A stretch of 37,647 bases of DNA from Candidatus Levybacteria bacterium RIFCSPLOWO2_01_FULL_39_10 (GCA_001782515.1 MFOV01000008.1:1-37647); one strand, 5' to 3'; positions 9,159-18,294 are shown, numbered from the stretch's first letter. A program made the numbers and translations. The notes: generated from the sequence alone by a model not told the origin.

Positions 9159-9923
9159 TTAATCTCTCTTTCCTGCGTTTTCGTTACTAACTACGTAACT
9201 AACACACGCTCCTTGATTCTTAAAAGTTGGATTATTGAATGTTTTCCACCCATCTTTCTTACACTCGTCTTTATTAGTTGGCGGCCCAACTAAAACTGGA
9301 TCAAACGTGTGAAGGTCTGAATTTACCAACACATTATCCACGAGAACCGTCTGCTCCACGTCACCAAACATCCAGCTAGAATCAACCACCAAGCTGATTC
9401 TAAGAACATTAAGTCCGGCAGTTAACGTTACTGCATCGGCATAGGTGTCATAAAAAGTACCGCCCACTTGACCTGTATCCCACACTGGATTTGGATCTGT
9501 AACTAGGTTGCCACTTGGAACCCAGGTGTTAGGCGTACATCCTGTGTAATTTGGACTAGGTCCAAGATACACAAAAACATTCGCGTCACCTGCGCTCACG
9601 ACTCCATCATTATCAAAGTCGATCCTAACTTGAAATCTCGGAGAACCTCCACCACAGTCATCATCGGTAACATTAAAATCAGTGCTTAACGTGGTTAGAT
9701 CAGCAAGAGTTGTTATACCTGCTGGTACATCAAAGCGCACACCACCCCAACCTGGGGACACGGTTGCGTCCGATCTAATTTGTGCAGCATTGCCTGGGTT
9801 TCCTCCTGCTACTATACTGGCATCACCAAAAAGAGTATAAGCGGCAAAAGCAGATACTGCTGAAAGTCCAAGTACTGTGGCAACTGCAACTACGGAAACT
9901 ACCAATTTTTTAATATTTGTCAT
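9159..9923 (-). CDS. secreted protein with Cys-containing C-terminal motif
   Basis: Signal peptide MTNIKKLVVSVVAVATVLGLSAVSAFA; C-terminal CKKDGWKTF...FKNQGACVSYV; strong SD GGAGGTGA 5 nt before the ATG. Confidence 0.7.
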   Translation of the reverse strand: MTNIKKLVVSVVAVATVLGLSAVSAFAAYTLFGDASIVAGGNPGNAAQIRSDATVSPGWGGVRFDVPAGITTLADLTTLSTDFNVTDDDCGGGSPRFQVRIDFDNDGVVSAGDANVFVYLGPSPNYTGCTPNTWVPSGNLVTDPNPVWDTGQVGGTFYDTYADAVTLTAGLNVLRISLVVDSSWMFGDVEQTVLVDNVLVNSDLHTFDPVLVGPPTNKDECKKDGWKTFNNPTFKNQGACVSYVVSNENAGKRD

Positions 9924-9929
9924 TTATTT

Positions 9930-10030
9930 CACCTCCTCCCTGTTGGATAGTCCCATTAGATGGCGGATTATCTTATCTAACGGGACATCCAACGGGACCA
10001 CGTGAGATGTGTAAACTATCTCACAGTGGC
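9930..10030 (-). promoter_or_regulatory. two-hairpin leader RNA motif, copy A (expanded hairpin 2)
   Basis: minus strand CACU-GUGAGAU-AGUUUACAC-AUCUCAC-GUGGUC-[long hairpin CCCGUUGGAU..AUCCAACAGGG]-AGGAGGUG; begins right after the GIY-YIG stop and ends in the SD of 9159..9923. Confidence 0.6.
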
Positions 10031-10288
10031 CTATTTTTTCTTTAAATCATTTCTAATTCTATTTTTCATATATCTTTTACCCCAACTTGTTTTTAAATAT
10101 ATTTCTCTATGCAAAGCGTCCGACTTATTCCGACATCCTTCAAAATATACTATCTCAAAAGGTCTCCTTGCCTTTGTCGAAATTACTTCACCTGCATTAT
10201 GTTTTTTTAACCTTTTTTCAAGATTATCGGTATATCCTGTGTAGAATTTTCCGTCTTTAATACTTTTTAAAACATAAACATAAAACAT
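10031..10288 (-). CDS. GIY-YIG nuclease family protein (small, UPF0213-like)
   Basis: MFYVYVLKS...GKFYTGYTDNLEKRLKKHN...; track start TTG 10294 replaced by ATG 10288, which gives the typical MFYVY start. Confidence 0.85.
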   Translation of the reverse strand: MFYVYVLKSIKDGKFYTGYTDNLEKRLKKHNAGEVISTKARRPFEIVYFEGCRNKSDALHREIYLKTSWGKRYMKNRIRNDLKKK

Positions 10289-10296
10289 TTCCAAAA

Positions 10297-10331
10297 GGTA
10301 AATTCTAAATACTAATATCTAAATTCTAACT
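10297..10331. repeat. heptamer module (5 x 7 nt)
   Basis: ggtaaat tctaaat actaata tctaaat tctaact; CTA recurs at 10305, 10312, 10319, 10326; 9 nt upstream of the GIY-YIG ATG. Confidence 0.8.
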
Positions 10332-10446
10332 TGAATATAAGTTGGTTTGCGGATTTAAAACATGCTAGGAGTTCTGGAGAATATTGTGGGGATTTTCCTA
10401 CTGTGGCAGTATTACTATTATCCTCGGAGTTAAAACAATAGAGCAT
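10312..10446 (-). CDS. possible leaderless small ORF (44 aa)
   Basis: ATG 8 nt after the -10 of the promoter at 10455-10484; MLYCFNSEDNSNTATVGKSPQYSPELLACFKSANQLIFKLEFRY; its 3' end runs into the heptamer module; no homology recognised. Confidence 0.25.
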   Translation of the reverse strand: MLYCFNSEDNSNTATVGKSPQYSPELLACFKSANQLIFKLEFRY

Positions 10447-10454
10447 GGATGTTT

Positions 10455-10484
10455 ATAATAGTAACTTATATAGGACTTTGTCAA
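10455..10484 (-). promoter_or_regulatory. sigma70-like promoter upstream of small ORF / GIY-YIG gene
   Basis: minus strand TTGACA (10479-10484), 18 nt, TATTAT (10455-10460). Confidence 0.45.
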
Positions 10485-10535
10485 CCCTTTAATTTGAATC
10501 ATGAAGCAAGAATCATGAATCATGGGTAAGTTAAT

Positions 10536-10889
10536 CTAACGGGGTGATTTTGATCTAAAGATTGAGGCGAGGACGTCAAAGTGAGATACCTTCTCAGCAA
10601 ATTTTATAGCTCTTTTTATATCTCCGTTTTCGTAAGATGCTTCTGTTGCGGTTTTGGATGCTTGCTTTGCTTTTTCAAAACTATCAGTAACTTTTTGAAT
10701 ATCATCTACGTACTCGGCGTATGCAGACGTTGCAATTGAGACTCTCCGAAGACTTTCCTCATATCTTTCACCATTGTATTCTTTTGTAAAACGCACCCTA
10801 TTAAACATCTGATATGATTCTTGAAGGACGCAACTTGCTTCGCTTTGAAGCTGACCAGGGTTTAATCTTTCAAGTTCAACGTTTTGCAT
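10536..10889 (-). CDS. hypothetical protein (117 aa from ATG 10889)
   Basis: Track start TTG 10898; ATG at 10889 (MQNVELERLN...); helical, no motif recognised. Confidence 0.5.
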   Translation of the reverse strand: MQNVELERLNPGQLQSEASCVLQESYQMFNRVRFTKEYNGERYEESLRRVSIATSAYAEYVDDIQKVTDSFEKAKQASKTATEASYENGDIKRAIKFAEKVSHFDVLASIFRSKSPR

Positions 10890-10930
10890 AGTAGGCAATT
10901 CTAGTACCGTGGTAAATCTTTGTCAATTTT

Positions 10931-10939
10931 TGATATAAT
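10931..10939 (+). promoter_or_regulatory. extended -10 promoter (TGATATAAT), leaderless, for 10948..11256
   Basis: TGnTATAAT at 10931-10939, 8 nt before the ATG. Confidence 0.4.
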
Positions 10940-10947
10940 TCCCTGCT

Positions 10948-11256
10948 ATGGAAAGAGATAAAATAGGAATTCAAATAAACGAAAAAGCAGTTGCAGAGTT
11001 TGAAGTAAAAGGAAATAGGATTGTTTCTCCCCGTCGAGTGATTCAAGAAACAATGGGTTTCCCGCTGGTAAACGATAGATTAAAGTTATTTCTTGATGAG
11101 CGAACTGACCTTGTTGTTAGAAGTGGAAGACTAACTGGTGTGAGAGCAAAAGATGCAAGGCGTGTTATTGAAACTGTTAATAGTGATCCTTGGGCTGCTT
11201 TGCCACTTGCTCCAAAGCAAACTCAAAAATTTGTCGCAGATATTCTTAGTCCTTAA
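10948..11256 (+). CDS. hypothetical protein (102 aa)
   Basis: ATG ORF; converges on and overlaps the cysS 3' end by 11 nt. Confidence 0.5.
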   Translation: MERDKIGIQINEKAVAEFEVKGNRIVSPRRVIQETMGFPLVNDRLKLFLDERTDLVVRSGRLTGVRAKDARRVIETVNSDPWAALPLAPKQTQKFVADILSP

Positions 11257-12592
11257 TTTTTTTAATTTTAGTGCCTGTAGGAGTATCCTCAACTGTAAAG
11301 CCTTTTTCTTCTATTTGAACACGGATTTTATCCGCTTCACTAAAGTCGCCGCTTTTCCTAAACTGTTCCCTTTTTTGAATTAACGAACGAACTTCATCCG
11401 GAACTTCCACTTTTTCCGGTTTAAACTCTGCCAAACCAAGTCCCAAAATTTCATCAAATTTTAAAAGGCTTTTCTTTTTAGCGCTTCCCGGATAATCTGA
11501 GCGAACCATTTCCCAAACAACAGACAACGCCTCGGGCATATTCAAATCATCACTTACCGCGTCCTTAAATCTTTGCTCAAACTCGGCACATCCCACTTTT
11601 GCCTCTCCCCAGGAAGCAAGTTCCCCCCGGAGTCTTTCAAGCGCATTTTCAGCTCCCCGCAGTGCCTCCCATGTAAAATTCATCTCCTGACGGTAGTGAG
11701 TCTGTAAATATAAATAGCGAAGAGAAAGGGGTTCAATGCCGTTGTCTTCAATGTCTGAAAGTGTGTAAAAATTGCCAAGACTTTTACTCATTTTCTGCCC
11801 TTCAACCAGAATGTGTGCGCCGTGCACAAAATAATTTACAAATTTCTTGCCGGTTTTGCCCTCAGACTGGGCAATTTCATTCTCATGGTGCGGGAAAATA
11901 AGATCAACCCCTCCTGCGTGAATATCAAATGTTTCACCCAGAGATTCCTGACTCATAACCGAGCACTCAATATGCCAGCCCGGTCTTCCCCACCCCCATG
12001 GCGAATCATAACCAAACTCTTCCCTTCCCTCCGCCTTCCAAAGAGCAAAATCCTGAACGTCATCTTTTGTATATTCATCAGACAGTATCCTTGTTCCAGA
12101 TTTTAGATTTGAAACATCAATCCCCGACAGCTTTCCATATGAGTCAAACTTAGAAATATCAAAGTAAATAGACCCGTCTTCTTCTTTATATGCCAGTCCT
12201 TTTTCGAGCAAAACCTGAATATAGTCAATCATCTTTTGTATATACTCTGTAGCATGTGGCATTTTATCTTTATCCTTTATATTTAGTTTTTTTATATCTT
12301 CAAGGAAATATTTTTCGTACTCGGCTGTTAAGTTTGACACTTTAACATTTTGCTCTTTGGCTTTTTTAATAATTTTGTCATCAATATCAGTTATGTTTTG
12401 GATAGAGGTAACGCTGTAGCCGTTGAGCTCAAGTACTCGTTCAAGTAAATCCGATAATAAAAAAGTTCGAAGATTTCCAATGTGCATATAGTCATATACA
12501 GTCGGTCCACAAGTGTAGATTCCAACTTTTCTTTCATGGATTGGTTTAAACTCCTCAACTTTCCGCGATAATGTATTGTAAAGTTTTAACAT
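11246..12592 (-). CDS. cysS: cysteine--tRNA ligase
   Basis: Class I signatures HIGN (YMHIGNLRTF) and KMSKS (QKMSKSLGN); WHIECS zinc/cysteine-binding region; 448 aa. Confidence 0.95.
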   Translation of the reverse strand: MLKLYNTLSRKVEEFKPIHERKVGIYTCGPTVYDYMHIGNLRTFLLSDLLERVLELNGYSVTSIQNITDIDDKIIKKAKEQNVKVSNLTAEYEKYFLEDIKKLNIKDKDKMPHATEYIQKMIDYIQVLLEKGLAYKEEDGSIYFDISKFDSYGKLSGIDVSNLKSGTRILSDEYTKDDVQDFALWKAEGREEFGYDSPWGWGRPGWHIECSVMSQESLGETFDIHAGGVDLIFPHHENEIAQSEGKTGKKFVNYFVHGAHILVEGQKMSKSLGNFYTLSDIEDNGIEPLSLRYLYLQTHYRQEMNFTWEALRGAENALERLRGELASWGEAKVGCAEFEQRFKDAVSDDLNMPEALSVVWEMVRSDYPGSAKKKSLLKFDEILGLGLAEFKPEKVEVPDEVRSLIQKREQFRKSGDFSEADKIRVQIEEKGFTVEDTPTGTKIKKIKD

Positions 12593-12593
12593 A

Positions 12594-12628
12594 CTAATTA
12601 AATTCTAATATCTAATTTCTAATCAAGG
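12594..12628. repeat. heptamer module directly upstream of the cysS ATG
   Basis: ctaatta aattcta atatcta atttcta atcaagg; three clean ttctaat-type units plus degenerate flanks; starts 2 nt from the start codon. Confidence 0.7.
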
Positions 12629-12650
12629 ACTCTATTTTTCGATTTTAAAT

Positions 12651-12674
12651 TATTGTTCGAGCGAAGTCGAGAAC
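12651..12674. repeat. 24-nt perfect direct repeat, left copy, flanking GIY-YIG gene
   Basis: TATTGTTCGAGCGAAGTCGAGAAC, identical to 12996-13019. Confidence 0.9.
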
Positions 12675-12691
12675 AAGAATTTAACATAAAC

Positions 12692-12961
12692 TTACCATTC
12701 TTTCTTCCAATCGCCTTTTATAAGTTTTTCTTTCTTTTTTCTGCTCCAATCTTTAATTTGAATTTCTCTTTTTCTTGCAGTTTCTAAATCCTCATGTTCT
12801 TCCAAATACGCAAGTTTTCTAACTCCATGTTTCGCTGTGTACTTGCTTCCAAATTTTGATAAATGTTGCTCAAATCTAATTTCTGGCTTCCAAGTTATTC
12901 CTGTATAGTAAGTCCCATCTAAGCATTCTAAAATATAAACAAACCATTTCCATTTTCTCAT
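12692..12961 (-). CDS. GIY-YIG nuclease family protein (small)
   Basis: WFVYILECLDGTYYTGITWKPEIRFEQH...; 89 aa. Confidence 0.8.
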   Translation of the reverse strand: MRKWKWFVYILECLDGTYYTGITWKPEIRFEQHLSKFGSKYTAKHGVRKLAYLEEHEDLETARKREIQIKDWSRKKKEKLIKGDWKKEW

Positions 12962-12995
12962 GATACTTCTCCACGCGCTACGCTTGGTCGAAGAA

Positions 12996-13076
12996 TATTG
13001 TTCGAGCGAAGTCGAGAACTCATGATGCTTTCTTCTCGACTCTCCTTCGACAAACTCAGGATCGCTCGAAGAATAA
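12996..13076. repeat. 24-nt direct repeat, right copy, forming the 5' arm of a long imperfect hairpin
   Basis: TTCGAGCGA (13001-13009) pairs with TCGCTCGAA (13062-13070); GTCGAGAA (13011-13018) pairs with TTCTCGAC (13033-13040). Confidence 0.8.
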
Positions 13077-13090
13077 ATTAGGTTAATTAT

Positions 13091-13690
13091 CTACCCGCTG
13101 ACGCCGGGTAGTTTTTCTGCTGTTCCTTGTTTTACGTTTACCGGAAGCTCGGGCGGTTTTTCGCGCTTTGTTTCAAGTTCTTCCATCTTCTCTTCCTCTT
13201 CCTCTCTTTCCACTTTTTCCTTCGCCCTTTCTTCCTGTTTGGCAGGAGCATTAAATGTGGGATCATAGTACTGCTCTTTGTGAAGTTCTTGTCTTATTTT
13301 TGTTTTCTTTGCTTCCTCCTCGGGATCTACTTCCGGTTTTAAACTAGGAATCCCAAACATGTCTTTAATTGTGCCCGGTTTTTGATTGTCTGATGGCTGA
13401 TTGCTGATGGCTGATTGCTGACTATTCTTAGGCCCGTATAAATTTTGAAGAAACTCCTGAGCCTCCTCGTCCGTCATTTGCTGATTTTGAGTCTGAATAG
13501 CTTGATTTTGTTCATTTGTCCCCTGATCTAAGTTTTGATCACTGTTCGAACTTGAATCCGAACCGGTAAGCTGTCCTGCAGCAGATTTCCCAAAATCAGA
13601 CGCTCCTTTTTTTACACCTTTAGAACTGCTTTGAACAATACTCTGCCCTTTTTCGATTACTTCTTCTGAAAAATGTCCAAAACCTTTCAT
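13091..13690 (-). CDS. low-complexity acidic/Gln-rich hypothetical protein
   Basis: 199-aa ORF rich in S, Q, E and K; contains an in-frame heptamer module; antisense ORF 13127..13342 judged spurious. Confidence 0.5.
   Translation of the reverse strand: MKGFGHFSEEVIEKGQSIVQSSSKGVKKGASDFGKSAAGQLTGSDSSSNSDQNLDQGTNEQNQAIQTQNQQMTDEEAQEFLQNLYGPKNSQQSAISNQPSDNQKPGTIKDMFGIPSLKPEVDPEEEAKKTKIRQELHKEQYYDPTFNAPAKQEERAKEKVEREEEEEKMEELETKREKPPELPVNVKQGTAEKLPGVSG
13391..13425. repeat. heptamer module inside a CDS
   Basis: tgatggc tgattgc tgatggc tgattgc tgactat; encodes SQQSAISNQPS. Confidence 0.8.
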
Positions 13691-13715
13691 ATTTTTATAT
13701 TTAAATTTGCTTAAA

Positions 13716-13750
13716 ACTTTTAACTTTTCACTCTGAACTTTTAACTATAT
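13716..13750. repeat. heptamer module, ACTTTTA family, intergenic copy
   Basis: actttta acttttc actctga actttta actatat; overlaps the recR stop codon; same family as 22098-22132 and 32455-32489. Confidence 0.8.
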
Positions 13751-14401
13751 CTCTATCCTTCCTTCCATGGCCCGTTGCAAAGTTATCTCATCAGCATATT
13801 CCAAATCCGCGCCTATCGGCAAACCTCTCCCGATCCTTGTTACTTTTAGCTTTTCGCCCTGCCTGCCGGCAGGCAGGTTTTGCTTGTCCGCCGGAGCCTT
13901 GGCGGAGGCGGAAGCTTTTAGCTGTTTATCAATATACATTGCAGTTGCTTCACCCTCCATTGTCGGATTTGTCGCAAGTATAATTTCCGTGACACTTCCT
14001 TCACCTTTTACTCTATCAAGGAGTTGCTTAATATATATTTCATCCGGTCCTATGTTATTCAAAGGATCAATCCGGCCGTGCAGGACATGATAAACGCCTT
14101 TATATTTTCCGCTTTTTTCAAGTGCCAAAACATCCAGCGGCTCCTCAACCACACAAATTACACCCTGATCGCGCTCGGGATCTGAACAAATTTCGCATGG
14201 ATCAGTCTCTCCTACAGTAAAACAATTTGAACAAATTATTGTTCCGGTTTTTAAGTTTTGGAGACTTTGGGCAAACTTATCGAGTTCGTATTGCGGTACG
14301 TGTAAAAGATAAAAAGTAAGCCTTTGGGCGGTTTTTGGCCCAATGCCCGGTAATTTTTCAAATGATTCGGTCAATGCCTGTACTGCTTTTGGAATCTTCA
14401 T
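13745..14401 (-). CDS. recR: recombination protein RecR
   Basis: LPGIGPKTAQRLTFYLL helix-hairpin-helix, C4 zinc finger CSNC...CEIC, Toprim region, C-terminal TRIGRGLPIGADLEYAD; ATG 14401 preferred over track TTG 14419; carries a roughly 20-aa low-complexity insertion. Confidence 0.92.
   Translation of the reverse strand: MKIPKAVQALTESFEKLPGIGPKTAQRLTFYLLHVPQYELDKFAQSLQNLKTGTIICSNCFTVGETDPCEICSDPERDQGVICVVEEPLDVLALEKSGKYKGVYHVLHGRIDPLNNIGPDEIYIKQLLDRVKGEGSVTEIILATNPTMEGEATAMYIDKQLKASASAKAPADKQNLPAGRQGEKLKVTRIGRGLPIGADLEYADEITLQRAMEGRIEI
13858..13915. repeat. palindrome-containing insertion inside recR
   Basis: 20-nt perfect palindrome CCTGCCTGCCGGCAGGCAGG (13858-13877), then TTTTGCTTGTCCGCCG (13878-13893), which is identical to 35058-35073. 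Confidence 0.8.
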
Positions 14402-14410
14402 GATTCTAGT

Positions 14411-14480
14411 TATTAGCAATTAGCATTTAGCCATTAGTTAATAAAACTAAAAGCTAGTTGCTAGTGGCTAGTTGCTCCTT
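14411..14480. repeat. heptamer modules between recR and prs (about 10 phased units)
   Basis: tattagc aattagc atttagc cattagt taataaa actaaaa gctagtt gctagtg gctagtt gctcctt; the last units encode the Prs C-terminus ATSH-stop. Confidence 0.8.
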
Positions 14481-15405
14481 TCAATTCTTCTGCTATCATA
14501 TCTGCAACACTTATTATCTCAAGTTTTCCAAATTTTCGATTTTCTGGTATCTCAATTGTATCTGTAACAATCACTTTTTTAATATTTGAATTTTGTATTT
14601 CTTGGGGAGCATCTCCTGCAAAAACTCCATGGGTAGACATAGCATAAACCTCCTCTGCCCCATTCTCCGTTAAAAGATCTGCTGAGGCAATTAAAGTTTT
14701 GCCTGTTGAAATAACATCATCGACAATTACTGCTGTTTTTTTAACGCCTCCTGTAAACTTGAGCGACTTAATATCCCCTGTTACAAGGTCTCTGTCTTTT
14801 TCAACTGTAACATATGGCACTCCGCCAAGCTCTTCTGAAATTTTTTTAATTCGTGCAATGCCTCCCATGTCAGGACTTACTAAAACAAGCTCGTGATTTA
14901 TGATTGATGATTTATGATTGATGATTTCGTGAGGGGTGGCGAGCGAATTTATTTTTTTTGCAAATAAGGGAATGGCTGAAAGTTCCCTCACTTCTTTTTT
15001 GAAAAGCTCGGATATTTTGACCGAATGAAACTCAAATGAAATAAATCTATCAACTCCAAGACTTTCCAAAATCTTAATTATAACCTCAAGCGAAACGCCT
15101 TCACCTGATCTAAACACATGGTCCTGTCTTTGATACCCAAGATAAGGGATTACAAGTGTAACTCGCCGTGCTCCTGATCTTTTAAGAGAATCGAGGATGA
15201 AAAAAAGCTCCATGTAGTATAAGTTGGGAGATATTCCCGTAGACTGTACCACCACAACATCCTGATCTAATACATCACTTATTACCCTGACTCTGTTTTC
15301 GTTGTCGGGAAAAGTATGAATTTCAATTTGGCCCAAGTCGTAACCTTTGTGATCGGCGATTTTTTGAGCCAAACTTTTATTTGAGCTTCCTGAAAAAATT
15401 AACAT
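14461..15405 (-). CDS. prs: ribose-phosphate pyrophosphokinase
   Basis: PRPP-binding loop VIVDDVISTGKTL; overall Prs layout; 314 aa; start overlaps the ybaB stop (TAATG). Confidence 0.92.
   Translation of the reverse strand: MLIFSGSSNKSLAQKIADHKGYDLGQIEIHTFPDNENRVRVISDVLDQDVVVVQSTGISPNLYYMELFFILDSLKRSGARRVTLVIPYLGYQRQDHVFRSGEGVSLEVIIKILESLGVDRFISFEFHSVKISELFKKEVRELSAIPLFAKKINSLATPHEIINHKSSIINHELVLVSPDMGGIARIKKISEELGGVPYVTVEKDRDLVTGDIKSLKFTGGVKKTAVIVDDVISTGKTLIASADLLTENGAEEVYAMSTHGVFAGDAPQEIQNSNIKKVIVTDTIEIPENRKFGKLEIISVADMIAEELKGATSH
14894..14928. repeat. heptamer module inside prs
   Basis: tgattta tgattga tgattta tgattga tgatttc; encodes EIINHKSSIINH. Confidence 0.85.
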
Positions 15406-15686
15406 TAACTACCACCTAAAAGCCCTGATAGCCCTCCTTGCATTCCTGCAAGTTTTTTAGCAGCTATTTCCTGGGATTTTTTAATAGCTTCATTTACCGC
15501 ATCTTTAATGTCGCTATCTGACCTATCATTAGTCTTAAGTTCCTGAATTTTTTGATCTCCTGAGATTTTTATTTCAACTCCGTGTTTTTCAACGTCAATT
15601 ATCTCTGCTGCAAGAAGCCGCTGAATCTGCATAGCCTGATCGCGCATCTTTTTTAATTCTCCAATTTGTCCAAAAGGATTTCTCAT
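15405..15686 (-). CDS. ybaB: YbaB/EbfC family nucleoid-associated protein
   Basis: Size, conserved position after dnaX and helical N-terminus MRNPFGQIGELKKMRDQAMQIQ; track GTG 15695 lies inside the SD GGAGGTGA, so ATG 15686 is preferred. Confidence 0.8.
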   Translation of the reverse strand: MRNPFGQIGELKKMRDQAMQIQRLLAAEIIDVEKHGVEIKISGDQKIQELKTNDRSDSDIKDAVNEAIKKSQEIAAKKLAGMQGGLSGLLGGS

Positions 15687-15692
15687 AAAATT

Positions 15693-15763
15693 CACCTCCC
15701 CCTGTTGGATAACCTTCGATATCCAACGGGGTCACGTTGGATGCGCTAGCTATCCAACAGTGA
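15693..15763 (-). promoter_or_regulatory. two-hairpin leader RNA motif, copy B (dnaX-ybaB intercistronic)
   Basis: minus strand CACU-GUUGGAU-AGCUAGCGC-AUCCAAC-GUGACC-CCGUUGGAUA-UCGAAGGU-UAUCCAACAGG-GGGAGGUG; abuts the dnaX stop and ends in the ybaB SD. Confidence 0.65.
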
Positions 15764-17143
15764 CTAATTTTTTAATTTTATCTCAACTTTTATTTTTTCG
15801 CCTGTTATCTCACTCGCAAACCTTTCAATCAAAGCTTGCGCATTTTCACTACTTAATCTATCTTTATGAAACTTGTAACCTGTTGAAAGGGTAAGTTTGT
15901 TTTTATCGAATTTTTCAATCTTACATCCTCGCAATAACCCTGCAACTGTGACATTTTCTTTTTTAATTTTTTCTATCAGCTCTTCTAATATCTTATCATC
16001 TTTATTCTCACCAACGCTTGGGTTTTTCAAACTTAAACTCGGATTCTGGGAAATGTTCGTCTGATTATCCGAATCACTGATACTCCGATTCTCTGAGTTT
16101 TCTGAGTTTTCTGAGTTTTCCGAAAAGCACCACTCAACTATTGCAAGCTCAAGTGGAAGCTGCGGAATTACGGAATATTTTACTTCCATATGAGATTTTG
16201 ATAAAAGAAGAATAAGATCCCTTGTTTCATTTGTTTTTCCTAATCCTTGCCTTGCTTCATTTATAAGTCTTTGGTGGAGTTCTTCAATAAGATTCTGGGT
16301 AAACAGCTTAAAATCAATGCCAGCGTTTGATAGATCATTGACGGTTTCGATTGCCGCATTTACGTCTTTTTCCGAAAGCGCGCTGACAAGCTCCTCTGTT
16401 GCCAAGTTTAAAGTTTTTGTTTTGTATCTTTTCTCAACTGTAATTAAACTAATACTTGATGATGTTGATAGTTCTTCAAGAATTTTTGCGCCGTCTCTAA
16501 AACTTCCGTCTGACAATTTTGCAATCTGAATTAAAGCTTCCTTATCCGCTTTTATTTTTTCTCCTTTTACAATTTGCTGAAATGAGGAAACGAGCTCCTC
16601 ATTTGTTGCTTTTGAAAAAGACAAATGAAAACAGCGAGACTTAATCGTCTCAGGAACTTTCTGAGATTCTGTTGTGCATAAAATAAAATACGCATGGGAC
16701 GGCGGCTCTTCAAGTGTTTTTAAAAGTGCGTTGAATGCTTCAGTTGTCAGCATATGCACCTCGTCAATTATATAGATTTTTTTCTTTGACTGAACAGGTG
16801 AGAGTCTTATCTTCTCCCTCAAATCCCTTATCTCATCAATTCCGCGATTTGAAGCAGCATCAATCTCAATCACATCAAGATTTGTGCCATTTCCAATTGA
16901 TAAGCAAGGAAAGCATTTGTTACAAGGCTCAATATCCCTGCCGCGCCTATTAGTGCAATTTATTGCTTTTGCTATAAGACGCGCGGTTGATGTTTTTCCA
17001 AGACCCCGGCCGCCTGTAAACAAAAATGCGTGGGGAATTTTGTCAGGAATATTCCCTTTTAGCGCGTTTTCAAGCTTTTCCCGCGCCGAAACGCAGTCAA
17101 GCTCTGAAAATTTCTTCGGTCGGTATTTTAAATAAAAAACCAT
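15764..17143 (-). CDS. dnaX: DNA polymerase III subunit gamma/tau
   Basis: Walker A GGRGLGKTSTARL, zinc module CNKCFPC, Walker B IYIIDEVHML, sensor motifs; contains a SENSENSENSEN repeat insertion. Confidence 0.93.
   Translation of the reverse strand: MVFYLKYRPKKFSELDCVSAREKLENALKGNIPDKIPHAFLFTGGRGLGKTSTARLIAKAINCTNRRGRDIEPCNKCFPCLSIGNGTNLDVIEIDAASNRGIDEIRDLREKIRLSPVQSKKKIYIIDEVHMLTTEAFNALLKTLEEPPSHAYFILCTTESQKVPETIKSRCFHLSFSKATNEELVSSFQQIVKGEKIKADKEALIQIAKLSDGSFRDGAKILEELSTSSSISLITVEKRYKTKTLNLATEELVSALSEKDVNAAIETVNDLSNAGIDFKLFTQNLIEELHQRLINEARQGLGKTNETRDLILLLSKSHMEVKYSVIPQLPLELAIVEWCFSENSENSENSENRSISDSDNQTNISQNPSLSLKNPSVGENKDDKILEELIEKIKKENVTVAGLLRGCKIEKFDKNKLTLSTGYKFHKDRLSSENAQALIERFASEITGEKIKVEIKLKN
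16093..16119. repeat. 9-nt tandem repeat (3 units) inside dnaX
   Basis: ctgagtttt x3; encodes (SEN)n; total length resembles the heptamer modules. Confidence 0.85.
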
Positions 17144-17155
17144 GGTCGCATTGCT

Positions 17156-17190
17156 CCAATTTCTAATTACTAATTTCTAAATACTAAGAC
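17156..17190. repeat. heptamer module upstream of dnaX
   Basis: ccaattt ctaatta ctaattt ctaaata ctaagac; 12 nt upstream of the dnaX ATG. Confidence 0.8.
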
Positions 17191-17298
17191 GCGGGAAGCT
17201 ATAAAATTTTCGCAACGTACGTCAGCGACGAAGAGTTTATGGATAAACAAAATTTATTCGCGCAGGCAGTAAGAAAATTTTAAAGCGACCTTAAGCGT
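17188..17298. repeat. 110-nt repeat element with inverted termini, copy 1
   Basis: About 88 percent identical to 18335-18447 by eye; ends GACGC..AAAATTTTCG and GAAAATTTT..GCGTC are inverted complements. Confidence 0.8.
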
Positions 17299-17691
17299 CT
17301 ATTCTTCATGGTGCAGTCCGAGTAAATGGCCCATGCCATGAACAATCAGCTGATCAATCTTGTCATCCACCAGCATCTCGTCTCTTGCCGCCTCCTCAAT
17401 TACCTTAGGGTACGATATCACAATATCCCCAAGCCTCAGTTTGTCAGTCGGAGGACGGGAACTTGCGCCGTCTGAAAGCGAAAAAGTGAGAATGTTTCTT
17501 GTTTTATCCTCTCCCTTGTATTTTAGGGAAAGTTCCCTCATTTTCCTGTCTCCGACTACTGCAACTGATACCTCAACCGGTGATTTCACTCCCTCCTTTG
17601 ATAATGTTGAGCCGACTGCTGATCTTATTCTTTTTCTGTTAACTTTATAACGGGACTCCACAAAAATCAGAACATTAATACTGTTTTCCAT
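17299..17691 (-). CDS. ybeY: rRNA maturation RNase YbeY
   Basis: Metal-binding motif HGMGHLLGLHH (HxxxHxxGxxH); 130 aa; follows rpsU with a 3-nt gap. Confidence 0.9.
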   Translation of the reverse strand: MENSINVLIFVESRYKVNRKRIRSAVGSTLSKEGVKSPVEVSVAVVGDRKMRELSLKYKGEDKTRNILTFSLSDGASSRPPTDKLRLGDIVISYPKVIEEAARDEMLVDDKIDQLIVHGMGHLLGLHHEE

Positions 17692-17694
17692 ATA

Positions 17695-17877
17695 TTAAAA
17701 ACTTGCTCTTTTGACGCGTCTTGCCTCCTCTGCTTTTGCTTTTCTGGCAAGAGAGGGCTTAAGGTAAAATTCTCGCCTTTTTGCTTCCTGAATAATTCCC
17801 TCATTTATTACTTTTTTTGTAAATTTGCGAATAAGCGAATCATCACTGTCTCCGGGCATTTTTTTAACAACTACCAT
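17695..17877 (-). CDS. rpsU: 30S ribosomal protein S21
   Basis: 60-aa basic protein; SLIRKFTKKV...EAKRREFYLKPSLARKAK pattern typical of S21. Confidence 0.88.
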   Translation of the reverse strand: MVVVKKMPGDSDDSLIRKFTKKVINEGIIQEAKRREFYLKPSLARKAKAEEARRVKRASF

Positions 17878-17888
17878 AATTTAGAAAA

Positions 17889-17960
17889 CACCTCCCCCTG
17901 TTGGATAATCTTCGATATCCAACGGGGTCACGTTGGATGCATTAGCTATCCAACAGTGAC
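17889..17960 (-). promoter_or_regulatory. two-hairpin leader RNA motif, copy C (upstream of rpsU)
   Basis: 69 of 72 nt identical to copy B; all three differences fall in hairpin loops. Confidence 0.65.
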
Positions 17961-17973
17961 CAATTTTTTTACT

Positions 17974-18294
17974 TTATATTTCATGTTTACTCCATGGCCC
18001 CATTAAATGAATATGCAAGTGGCTTATGATTTGTGCTCCCCCGCCATTTATTCCAATCCTGTAACCTTTTTTCTCAAGACCAGTCTCTTTTATCATTTTT
18101 TTCAAAATTTTTGTCATTTTTGCAAGCGAGTCTTCATCAACATCTAAAAAATCCCGGATGTGTTTTTTTGAGACTATCAAAAGATGCGTTGGTCTTATGG
18201 GATTAATATCCGGAAAAACCATAACGTCTTTATCTTCATAGGTAAACTCTTTTGGAATTTCCCCATCTCTGATTTTACAAAAAATACAATCCAT
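17974..18294 (-). CDS. HIT family protein (histidine triad hydrolase)
   Basis: CIFCKI N-terminus and HIT motif HLHIHLMG; ATG 18294 preferred over track TTG 18303. Confidence 0.88.
   Translation of the reverse strand: MDCIFCKIRDGEIPKEFTYEDKDVMVFPDINPIRPTHLLIVSKKHIRDFLDVDEDSLAKMTKILKKMIKETGLEKKGYRIGINGGGAQIISHLHIHLMGPWSKHEI

What the first reader, a model, noticed from the sequence alone, without database searches (positions are those of the whole stretch)
9930..17960. Conserved two-hairpin RNA motif ending in the Shine-Dalgarno of three unrelated genes, with compensatory substitutions
Three minus-strand copies (9930-10030, 15693-15763, 17889-17960) start right after the stop of the upstream gene. 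They end in GGAGGUG, which serves as the SD of a secreted protein, ybaB and rpsU. The common architecture is CACU, hairpin 1 (7-bp stem, 9-nt loop), GUGRYC, hairpin 2, then GGAGG. Copies B and C differ at 3 positions, all in loops. Copy A changes hairpin 1 from GUUGGAU/AUCCAAC to GUGAGAU/AUCUCAC. That is two compensatory base-pair changes that keep a perfect 7-bp stem. Copy A also extends hairpin 2 by a nested 11-bp helix. In B and C all four arms are mutually complementary. A mutually exclusive fold therefore exists: arm 1 with arm 4 (10 perfect bp, CUGUUGGAUA/UAUCCAACAG) enclosing arm 2 with arm 3 (8 bp). The G run next to the SD is part of the hairpin 2 stem. The motif could be a processing or stability element for intercistronic junctions, or a translational switch. 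I do not recognise it as a known leader.
Basis: seen in the sequence. Interest (0 to 1): 0.62.

Follow-up and report, generated by a model that had tools for sequence, protein, structure and literature searches.

The report
Mobile double-hairpin repeat at ribosome-binding sites
The three "RNA leaders" are real, strongly co-varying double hairpins, but the evidence points to copies of a small inserted DNA repeat, tied to a tiny GIY-YIG nuclease gene, that sits exactly in front of strong ribosome-binding sites in a few ultra-small (Patescibacteria) bacteria, not to a conserved regulatory RNA.

Summary
There are three copies in the window and five in the 0.92-Mb genome. I collected 71 non-redundant copies from Patescibacteria genomes and metagenomes. 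About 96-98% of stem cells pair, and 18 of 22 pairs show changes on both sides. Rfam has no match.

The interpretation as a conserved leader or switch is only partly supported.
- The element is in 16 of 245 genomes of the order and in 2 of 16 genomes of its own genus.
- In congeners the dnaX-ybaB junction is "stop codon + GGAGGTGATTTT + ATG", either with nothing between or with unrelated hairpins. The Shine-Dalgarno (SD) sequence is therefore native there and the element is an insertion.
- The seven closest homologues of the 87-aa GIY-YIG gene beside copy A are each followed by this element.
- G·U pairs (21) are no commoner than A·C (16), so pairing is kept equally on both strands.
- Hairpin 2 is the mirror image of hairpin 1, so the element looks alike on both strands.
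- The alternative fold exists in only 3 of 32 copies.

Best reading: a REPIN- or NTS-like palindromic repeat partnered with an Ssn-like nuclease, which lands at or is kept at full-length SDs.

The parts
15689..15767 (-). Copy B of the double-hairpin element, between the dnaX stop codon and ybaB. H1 is about 15731-15764 and H2 about 15700-15730. The native SD GGAGGTGA is at 15692-15699 and the ybaB ATG at 15684-15686.
   Evidence: Sequence. Fold (-34.3 kcal/mol, z -5.1). CM R1/R2 give 94.7/86.9 bits. Empty orthologous sites in congeners.
17885..17963 (-). Copy C, between the HIT-family gene and rpsU. H1 is about 17927-17960 and H2 about 17896-17926. The SD GGAGGTG is at 17889-17895 and the rpsU ATG at 17875-17877. 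It is 96% identical to copy B.
   Evidence: The rpsU leaders of 13 congeners lack it.
9926..10033 (-). Copy A, between the GIY-YIG ORF and a 254-aa secreted protein. H1 is about 9997-10030, with the compensated stem GTGAGAT/ATCTCAC. H2 is about 9938-9996. The SD GGAGGTGA is at 9929-9936 and the ATG at 9921-9923.
9951..9985 (-). Nested hairpin TCCCGTTAGAT...ATCTAATGGGA inside the loop of H2 of copy A. It belongs to a second, single-hairpin repeat family (CCCGTTAGAT..ATCTAACGGGA) that has about 10 loci in this genome.
   Evidence: genome-wide scan of hairpin modules; fold.
10034..10294 (-). Single-domain GIY-YIG nuclease gene of 87 aa. Its stop codon overlaps the first bases of copy A. It is the founder of the subclade that is always followed by this element.
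   Evidence: Pfam PF01541, E 1.8e-17. PDB relatives are UPF0213 proteins 1zg2 and 1ywl. All seven homologues at 61-100% identity in the order lie 0-40 nt upstream of an element copy.
10455..10484 (-). Promoter-like site (TTGACA-18-TATTAT, 11 of 12 matches) upstream of the GIY-YIG gene. It would transcribe the GIY-YIG gene, copy A and the secreted-protein gene as one unit. No promoter-like site lies directly before copies B or C.
   Evidence: This is a consensus match only, not evidence of function.

Best explanation
The motif is a small (about 65-95 bp) palindromic DNA repeat made of two hairpin modules in inverted orientation, comparable to a REPIN/BIME doublet or the Neisseria NTS repeats.

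It belongs with a dedicated subclade of about 90-aa single-domain GIY-YIG (Ssn-like) nucleases found in some Woesebacteria-type Patescibacteria.

It is not ancestral to the genes it precedes. It has been inserted, alone or as a [GIY-YIG gene + double hairpin] unit, immediately 5' of a full-length Shine-Dalgarno sequence (GGRGGTGA) and always in the same orientation.

Shown here:
- insertion polymorphism;
- physical linkage to the nuclease gene;
- strict adjacency to the SD and strict orientation;
- covariation;
- symmetry between the two strands.

Inferred:
- The hairpins are kept because folded single-stranded DNA is what the partner nuclease, or the spreading process, recognises. Each strand presents one hairpin of the form 7 bp-A-G with the invariant TAG.
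- The asymmetric SD, or its complement TCACCTCC, is the landing site or the only place where copies survive.
- Because the copies lie in 5' leaders they are transcribed. Any effect on mRNA stability or translation would be a by-product or a later co-option.
For: 1. Empty sites. The dnaX-ybaB junction in congeners G007, G008, G009 and G012 reads stop + GGAGGTGA(T/A)TTT + ATG with 0-6 nt between. Other congeners carry unrelated hairpins at the same spot. rpsU in 13 congeners keeps AGGAGGTGTTT or GGGGGTGTTT without the element. At the C27 locus, G013 lacks both the GIY-YIG gene and the element.
2. Patchiness with several copies per genome. The element is in 16 of 245 genomes and 9 of 103 genera, with 1-6 sense copies each. 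B and C are 96% identical in unrelated contexts 2.2 kb apart.
3. Nuclease linkage. The 7 best homologues of the copy-A GIY-YIG (61-100% identity, 6 genomes, 5 genera) are all followed by the element. The next one (59%) is followed by a single CCCATTAGAT..ATCTAACGGG hairpin. In the larger set, 12 of 64 copies have a GIY-YIG tail upstream.
4. Placement. 69 of 71 non-redundant copies are followed by a start codon and ORF in the sense orientation, and 64 of 69 by GGRGGTG. In the 32-copy alignment the SD lies 0-4 nt from the foot of H2 in all but 1-2 copies. Only 37 gene starts in this genome have GGAGGTG.
5. DNA-level symmetry. H1 has its bulges on the 5' arm (N, A) and H2 on the 3' arm (U, N), so the reverse complement of H2 has the shape of H1. 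G·U 21 against A·C 16, p=0.51. Both strands fold equally well.
6. Modularity. H1-only and H2-type single hairpins exist, as do nested insertions and one copy (L135) with an H1-type module in the SD-proximal position.
7. Precedent. Ssn nucleases are 94-aa single-domain GIY-YIG enzymes. They cut ssDNA next to hairpin repeats that flank their own genes and do not act on dsDNA or RNA (PMC11893778).
Against: - No biochemical evidence here that this GIY-YIG binds or cuts the hairpins.
- Only 6 of 16 element-positive genomes carry the linked subclade.
- The hairpins flank the nuclease gene on its 3' side only, not on both sides.
- I could not define a target-site duplication or exact element ends.
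- At the C27 locus the spacing suggests the SD may have arrived with the element and was not there beforehand. 'Target' and 'cargo' are therefore not cleanly separated.
- Total orientation bias, placement before small and probably highly expressed genes (S21, YbaB, HU, L7/L12, SSB, RRM), and recurrence before rpsU in 4 genomes of 3 genera would also fit selection for an RNA function.
- Palindromes can keep pairing through hairpin-templated repair, so covariation does not itself show recognition by a protein.
Confidence: 0.6

Rival explanations
1. It is a cis-acting RNA leader, for example a 5' stabiliser, a processing module or a translational enhancer. In this reading two stable coaxial hairpins placed just 5' of an exposed, full-length SD protect or insulate mRNAs of highly expressed small proteins. 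The module spreads by duplication or recombination because it is useful. The GIY-YIG genes merely home beside it.
For: - 69 of 71 copies are in sense orientation directly before SD + start.
- Downstream genes are enriched for short, abundant proteins: S21 x4, YbaB x3, HU, L7/L12, SSB, RRM, peroxiredoxins. The median downstream ORF is 107 aa.
- The H2 foot covaries (CCC/GGG against UCC/GGA) while GGAGGTG stays free.
- Several copies lie just downstream of promoter-like boxes or terminators, so they would sit at the mRNA 5' end.
- Other unrelated hairpin families also sit right before GGAGGTGA in this genome.
- From established knowledge: a 5' stem-loop plus a strong RBS stabilises mRNAs (B. subtilis aprE leader, B. 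thuringiensis cryIIIA STAB-SD, E. coli ompA 5' UTR).
Against: - It is absent from the same genes in 13-14 of 15 congeners, whose SDs work without it.
- There is no G·U excess over A·C.
- The mirror arrangement of the bulges is a DNA dyad, not an RNA symmetry.
- Loops are unconserved, while the exact 7-bp stems and the TAG/CTA bulges are conserved on both strands.
- A stabiliser would not need a 0-4 nt junction with the SD.
- There is tight linkage to one nuclease subclade.
- No transcript data are available.
Confidence: 0.2
2. The element is the homing or recognition site of a free-standing GIY-YIG homing endonuclease gene. In this reading the repeat exists for another reason. The nuclease gene copies itself next to repeat copies by break repair and plays no part in spreading the repeat.
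For: - The GIY-YIG gene is always on the same (5') side and in the same orientation, at a variable distance of 0-40 nt.
- Most copies (52 of 64) have no nuclease gene.
- Other GIY-YIG paralogues in this genome sit beside tRNA genes with duplicated tRNA ends, as homing elements do.
Against: - At the one orthologous comparison available (C27 locus), the gene and the hairpins are present together (G000, G002) or absent together (G013). I found no orthologous site with the hairpins alone in one genome and gene + hairpins in another.
- This reading does not explain how the repeat itself reached empty SD sites.
Confidence: 0.15
3. It is a double operator on duplex DNA, that is, two palindromes bound by a dimeric transcription factor that controls the downstream genes.
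For: Each hairpin is a palindrome with a fixed 7-bp half-site length. The element lies between promoter or stop codon and the start codon.
Against: - More than ten different, mutually compensated half-site sequences occur, often within one genome. A sequence-reading factor would not tolerate this.
- The asymmetric single-base bulges have no meaning in duplex DNA.
- Insertion polymorphism.
- In this window the copies are intercistronic with no promoter-like site beside B or C.
Confidence: 0.03

Closest known systems
Ssn nucleases with NTS/SRM hairpin repeats (Chenal et al. 2025, Nat Commun, PMC11893778)
   Same: Both involve a single-domain GIY-YIG protein of about 90 aa whose gene is physically associated with a short hairpin-forming repeat. 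The repeat is dispersed in several copies next to genes. The hairpin plus oriented non-palindromic flanks matters there; here it is the bulges and the GYCAC head. The authors themselves liken NTS-ssnA-NTS to an insertion sequence.
   Different: - None of 38 copies matches the published SRM consensus.
- The stems here are AT-rich 7-mers with bulges, not GC-rich.
- The unit is a fixed doublet of two inverted modules.
- There are 1-6 copies per genome, not hundreds.
- The repeat lies only 3' of the nuclease gene.
- Copies sit exactly at SDs.
- Assignment of the protein to cd10448 could not be tested, and its PDB relatives are labelled UPF0213.
- No activity data exist.
REPINs/BIMEs with RAYT (REP-associated tyrosine transposases)
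   Same: Both have two short palindromic modules in inverted orientation forming a non-autonomous doublet. Both are dispersed in intergenic, transcribed spacers and are linked to a single-copy-type nuclease or transposase gene flanked by the repeat. In both, hairpin recognition is thought to occur on ssDNA.
   Different: - The partner here is a GIY-YIG nuclease, not a Y1 HUH enzyme.
- PF01797 is missing from 6 of 16 positive genomes, including G132, the genome with most copies, and G052 and G060.
- The two modules usually have different stem sequences, so the doublet does not fold into one long hairpin (3 of 32 copies only).
- REPs usually lie after genes, whereas these lie before SDs.
Bacterial MITEs in transcribed spacers (Neisseria Correia/NEMIS, ERIC, RUP)
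   Same: Both are small gene-less inserts with inverted-repeat architecture. Both show insertion polymorphism between relatives and are co-transcribed with neighbouring genes, where they can alter mRNA processing or expression.
   Different: - There are no long terminal inverted repeats of common sequence.
- No target-site duplication was identified.
- No DDE transposase relative is known.
- Orientation and position relative to the SD are strict.
5' mRNA stabilisers (aprE leader stem-loop + RBS; cryIIIA STAB-SD; ompA 5' UTR). This comparison rests on my own knowledge, not on a tool result.
   Same: Stable hairpins lie directly upstream of a strong, accessible SD at or near the 5' end of a message. 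This is what the element would work like if it has an RNA role.
   Different: Those are single-gene, vertically inherited leaders without conserved bulge nucleotides. They have no linkage to a nuclease gene, no symmetry between strands and no presence/absence polymorphism.

Membership tests
Ssn nuclease / SRM (NTS-like) repeat system | Partner protein is a single-domain GIY-YIG of about 94 aa | tested here: met
   The protein is 87 aa. PF01541 covers residues 3-71 and there is no other domain. The closest PDB chains are about 100-aa UPF0213 GIY-YIG proteins.
Ssn nuclease / SRM (NTS-like) repeat system | [quoted passage not shown] | not testable with these tools
   No CDD library is available. 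NCBIfam gives only a sub-threshold group I intron endonuclease hit. The PDB hits are named UPF0213, which may be a neighbouring subfamily.
Ssn nuclease / SRM (NTS-like) repeat system | Repeat matches the SRM consensus HGTCWYN(0-2)YYVSBRHN(0-5)WNVSBRGN(0-2)RNCYNB | tested here: not met
   0 of 38 copies match on either strand. Only the head GTCAC of copies B and C resembles GTCWY.
Ssn nuclease / SRM (NTS-like) repeat system | Nuclease gene is flanked by its own repeat | tested here: met
   All 7 closest homologues have the element 0-40 nt downstream. No copy lies upstream of the gene, so flanking is one-sided.
Ssn nuclease / SRM (NTS-like) repeat system | Site-specific cleavage of ssDNA, not dsDNA or RNA, next to the hairpin | not testable with these tools
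   This needs purified protein and oligonucleotide substrates.
REP/REPIN with RAYT | Y1 (HUH) transposase gene present and linked to the repeat | tested here: not met
   PF01797 is found in 10 of 16 positive genomes but is absent from G132, G052, G060, G126, G150 and G151. It was not found next to any element copy inspected.
REP/REPIN with RAYT | Two REPs in inverted orientation that together form one long hairpin | tested here: not met
   The inverted module architecture is present. However, H1 and H2 stems are identical in only 3 of 32 copies, so the outer fold is usually impossible.
Classical MITE | Terminal inverted repeats of shared sequence plus a target-site duplication | tested here: not met
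   Comparison of filled and empty sites at ybaB shows no duplication. The 5' flank is not conserved beyond G[CT]CAC.
Classical MITE | Presence/absence polymorphism at orthologous sites | tested here: met
Curated cis-regulatory RNA (Rfam family, riboswitch or ribosomal-protein leader) | Match to a described covariance model | tested here: not met
   There was no hit at gathering thresholds over the whole window. Only chance-level hits with E above 2 appeared in permissive mode over 15600-18100.
Curated cis-regulatory RNA (Rfam family, riboswitch or ribosomal-protein leader) | Conserved association with one gene or pathway across relatives, and strand-specific (G·U-tolerant) covariation | tested here: not met
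   More than 25 unrelated downstream families were found. The element is absent from the same genes in congeners. G·U 21 against A·C 16.
IS200/IS605-derived PATE | Both end hairpins in the same orientation on one strand, with TnpA in the genome | tested here: not met
   The hairpins are mirror-oriented. TnpA-like genes are absent from 6 of 16 positive genomes.

The most novel reading that the evidence does not exclude
The [about 90-aa GIY-YIG gene + double hairpin] is an autonomous mobile unit of a kind not yet described, and the solo double hairpins are its non-autonomous derivatives. In this reading the nuclease recognises one bulged hairpin (7 bp-A-G) on each strand. It directs integration specifically to the Shine-Dalgarno sequence GGAGGTGA, or its complement TCACCTCC. 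The element therefore rides in the leaders of the best-translated genes without breaking them.
Probability: 0.3. Interest if true: 0.8.

Novelty: new variant of a known kind. Interest (0 to 1): 0.5.

Why it matters
The finding shows that excellent covariation statistics do not by themselves identify a structured RNA. Palindromic DNA repeats kept at the DNA level give the same signal, and the G·U against A·C count plus empty-site comparisons tell the two apart.

If the main reading is right, streamlined Patescibacteria genomes of under 1 Mb carry an active population of nuclease-linked hairpin repeats. These repeats specifically occupy ribosome-binding sites of highly expressed genes. That would extend the recently discovered Ssn/NTS principle (GIY-YIG ssDNA nucleases with their own hairpin repeats) to a new phylum, a new repeat architecture and a new, very precise genomic niche.

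The linked nucleases would also be candidates for new sequence- and structure-specific ssDNA cutters.

Tried and rejected
- Rfam at gathering and permissive thresholds gave nothing.
- Integron attC idea: GTTGGAT/ATCCAAC fit the GTTRRRY/RYYYAAC core sites. I dropped it because other copies use ATGAAGT, GTGAGAT and similar stems, and because the architecture is two short hairpins, not one attC.
- Riboswitch or guanidine-II-like tandem hairpins: loops are not conserved and the downstream genes are unrelated.
- RNase III or dimeric RNA-binder symmetry: the bulges lie on the same discontinuous strand. That is a mirror arrangement, not a dyad, in RNA, so I rejected this by geometric reasoning.
- IS200/IS605 TnpA or RAYT as mobiliser: no correlation with element presence.
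- Published SRM regular expression: 0 of 38 matches.
- Phage origin: 0 matches in viral contigs.
- Search for a target-site duplication or a second repeat upstream of the GIY-YIG genes: none seen.
- My automatic H2/SD parser on metagenome hits under-called features. I replaced it with CM-based calling.
- The leftmost-match SD tally was uninformative and was redone.

Full report
**1. Observation**

The three minus-strand copies are present as described. My extents are 9926-10033 (A), 15689-15767 (B) and 17885-17963 (C). The palindrome GTTGGAT-N(5-15)-ATCCAAC occurs four times in the window against 0.00 expected from shuffles.

B and C differ at three positions outside the 7-bp stems. A carries the doubly compensated stem GTGAGAT/ATCTCAC and a nested extra helix in hairpin 2. 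Each copy begins 0-10 nt after the upstream stop codon. The upstream genes are a GIY-YIG gene, dnaX and a HIT-family gene. Each copy ends in GGAGGTG, 5-11 nt before the ATG of a secreted protein, ybaB or rpsU.

The folds are far more stable than shuffles on both strands. Sense z-scores are -4.7 to -6.7 and antisense z-scores are -6.4 to -7.1.

**2. Refined anatomy**

- H1 is a 5-bp lower stem (GYCAC/GTGRC), one bulged base on the 5' arm, a 7-bp stem, a bulged A, then G-C and a variable apical stem-loop.
- H2 follows with no linker. It is CCC (or UCC), a 7-bp stem and an apical stem-loop. On the 3' arm it has C-U-A with a bulged U, the 7-bp arm, usually one bulged base, and GGG (or GGA).
- GGAGGTGA comes next.

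The reverse complement of H2 therefore has the same shape as H1. The invariant TAG occurs once on each strand (alignments). This is a dyad of duplex DNA. In a coaxially stacked RNA it would be a mirror arrangement, with all bulges on the discontinuous strand, which no dimeric RNA binder would explain.

**3. More copies and covariation**

The 0.92-Mb, 37.6% GC genome holds two further copies: C27:15109-15198 and C14:64849-64918, the latter cut by the contig end.

Covariance model R1, built from 4 copies, found the element in 7 of 61 relatives. R2, built from 15 copies, found it in 16 of 245 genomes and 9 of 103 genera of the order, with 1-6 sense copies per genome.

On 32 copies:
- 97.7% of cells pair;
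- 18 of 22 pairs have changes on both sides;
- 0 of 500 shuffles reach the observed values;
- slid controls pair in 28-42% of cells.

An exact-pattern scan of all GTDB species representatives hit only Patescibacteria-type MAGs. These are labelled Woesebacteria or Levyibacteriota. Two low-GC MAGs are labelled 'uncultured Gammaproteobacteria'. Viral contigs gave nothing. A metagenome scan added 50 contigs. Rfam has no match.

**4. It is an insertion**

*dnaX-ybaB junction.* Four of 15 congeners read stop codon + GGAGGTGA(T/A)TTT + ATG with 0-6 nt between: G007, G008, G009 and G012. The others carry at least four unrelated hairpin inserts at the same spot. Only this genome has the double hairpin there.

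*rpsU.* Thirteen congeners keep AGGAGGTGTTT or GGGGGTGTTT followed by an A/T-rich spacer of about 8 nt (mostly ATTTAATT) and the ATG, behind a promoter-like box and different hairpins. None has this element. For these two genes the long SD is therefore native, and the element lies just 5' of it.

*C27 locus.* The congener G013 has the same flanking genes but neither the GIY-YIG gene nor the element. G002 has both.

*B and C.* They are 96% identical although their flanks are unrelated. This indicates recent intragenomic copying.

*Recurrence.* The element precedes rpsU in four genomes of three genera and ybaB in two genomes, each time with different stem sequences. Congeners of those genomes lack it. 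This points to recurrent arrival at the same kind of site.

**5. Placement**

Among 71 non-redundant full-length copies, 69 are followed in the sense orientation by a start codon and ORF. GGRGGTG follows in 64 of 69. In the 32-copy alignment the SD lies 0-4 nt from the foot of H2 in all but 1-2 copies.

In this genome only 37 gene starts have GGAGGTG. Five of them carry this element, and at least seven more carry other hairpin families directly before the SD.

Downstream genes are unrelated to each other and mostly short (median 107 aa). They include S21, YbaB, HU, L7/L12, SSB, an RRM protein, LemA, camelysin-like secreted proteins, DUF378, DUF1761 and peroxiredoxins.

**6. Link to a nuclease**

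The gene whose stop codon overlaps copy A is an 87-aa single-domain GIY-YIG protein. Its PDB relatives are UPF0213 proteins.

GIY-YIG homologues are nearly universal in the order (213 of 245 genomes). The seven closest ones (61-100% identity; G000 twice, G002, G150, G052, G132, G040) are each followed within 0-40 nt by the double hairpin. The next closest (59%) is followed by a single CCCATTAGAT..ATCTAACGGG hairpin. In the larger set, 12 of 64 copies have a GIY-YIG C-terminus upstream.

The genome has at least 12 GIY-YIG paralogues. Some lie inside hairpins of the CCCGTTAAAGAT/ATCTTTAACGGG type and some lie beside tRNA genes with duplicated tRNA ends. About ten gene-less CCCGTTAGAT..ATCTAACGGGA hairpins lie at start codons, and one is nested in H2 of copy A.

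Y1 transposase genes do not track the element.

**7. RNA or DNA?**

Evidence against selection on one RNA strand:
- Over 1508 stem cells in 69 copies, 1443 are Watson-Crick. G·U pairs number 21 and A·C/C·A number 16 (p=0.51).
It is nearly isoenergetic only in B, at -33.3 against -34.3 kcal/mol.
- Loops are free to vary, while stem length and bulge nucleotides are fixed on both strands.

These points, together with the insertion polymorphism and the nuclease linkage, favour a DNA-level element.

A secondary role in the mRNA is possible, because the SD is left unpaired next to a stable helix and the genes are likely to be highly expressed. No promoter-like site lies directly before B or C. A strong one lies upstream of the GIY-YIG gene of copy A.

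**8. Comparison with known systems**

The nearest described system is Ssn/NTS. SsnA is a 94-aa single-domain GIY-YIG enzyme that cuts ssDNA beside a hairpin repeat flanking its own gene. It does not act on dsDNA or RNA (PMC11893778).

The present repeat fails the published SRM consensus (0 of 38). It is a fixed doublet of inverted modules, is low in copy number, lies only 3' of the nuclease gene, and sits at SDs. REPIN/RAYT and BIMEs share the inverted-doublet logic but use a different enzyme. Correia-type MITEs share the transcribed-spacer niche but have true terminal repeats and duplications.

I therefore file it as a new variant of the 'nuclease-linked palindromic repeat' kind, not as a member of the SRM family.

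**9. Earlier notes of this scan**

After I had found the GIY-YIG link independently, a word search returned notes on other genomes. They describe the same double hairpin before lemA as an inserted element tied to GIY-YIG genes. They also describe single TCTAACGGGA hairpins as start-codon elements. These notes agree with my results but are not independent evidence. I tested their main claims here: insertion, nuclease linkage, and Ssn as the closest known system.

**10. Verdict**

- Observation: confirmed.
- Best explanation: a GIY-YIG-partnered, SD-adjacent palindromic repeat, confidence 0.6.
- Rivals: RNA leader 0.2; nuclease homing beside a pre-existing repeat 0.15; duplex operator 0.03.
- Interest: 0.5.

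Noticed in passing
own genome C4:4805, C12:50565, C17:19031, C19:1818, C27:10510, C27:14282, C3:19650, C11:23072; nested copy at window 9951-9985: A second repeat family of single hairpins, CCCGTTAGAT...ATCTAACGGG(A). Some members sit on start codons so that the final A of the element plus the following TG rebuild an ATG (for example C4:4805 and C12:50565). One GIY-YIG gene (C17:61486-61731) lies between arms of this type.
   Followed up: partly
own genome C12:25754, C14:18474, C15:60950, C14:54944, C4:27898, C17:54854 (positions; minus-strand entries are counted on the reverse complement): Other, unrelated GC-rich hairpin families (for example GGCCGC..GGCCTCTGGCCCGGAG) also end directly at GGAGGTGA + start codon. 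A sizeable share of the genome's 37 full-length SDs therefore has some hairpin module immediately upstream.
   Followed up: no
L072-L084 (dnaX-ybaB junction of congeners): The same intercistronic junction carries at least four different hairpin inserts in different species of the genus. In G003 and G010 an SD-like GAGGAGG lies before the insert and AGGCGGTGA after it, which looks like a duplicated ribosome-binding site.
   Followed up: partly
own genome C25:36479-36718, C28:4650-4877, C17:40121-40348: GIY-YIG paralogues are inserted next to tRNA genes, with a duplicated piece of the tRNA on the other side of the ORF. The 0.92-Mb genome has at least 12 GIY-YIG paralogues.
   Followed up: no
L135 (metagenome contig Ga0209542_10272140): One copy has an H1-type module (CCAC...GTGG lower stem) in the SD-proximal, mirrored position, behind a GIY-YIG gene and a different first hairpin. 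This shows that the modules are interchangeable.
   Followed up: partly
L021 (G052:C40) and L106: An H1-only partial copy ending in GTGATC lies 12-27 nt upstream of a full element, in one case directly after the GIY-YIG stop codon. H1-only copies also occur alone (L104, L138, L143, L158, L161).
   Followed up: no
L057-L070 (rpsU leaders of congeners): A conserved promoter-like box (CTTGTT.../TTGTCA ... TGGAGTACAAT) and several different structured inserts lie between it and the rpsU SD. The rpsU leader is a hot spot for hairpin modules in this genus.
   Followed up: no
L102, L110 (CAYREZ010000007.1, CAZBTH010000013.1): Two MAG contigs labelled 'uncultured Gammaproteobacteria' carry canonical copies and have 36-42% GC. 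The taxonomic labels are probably wrong.
   Followed up: no
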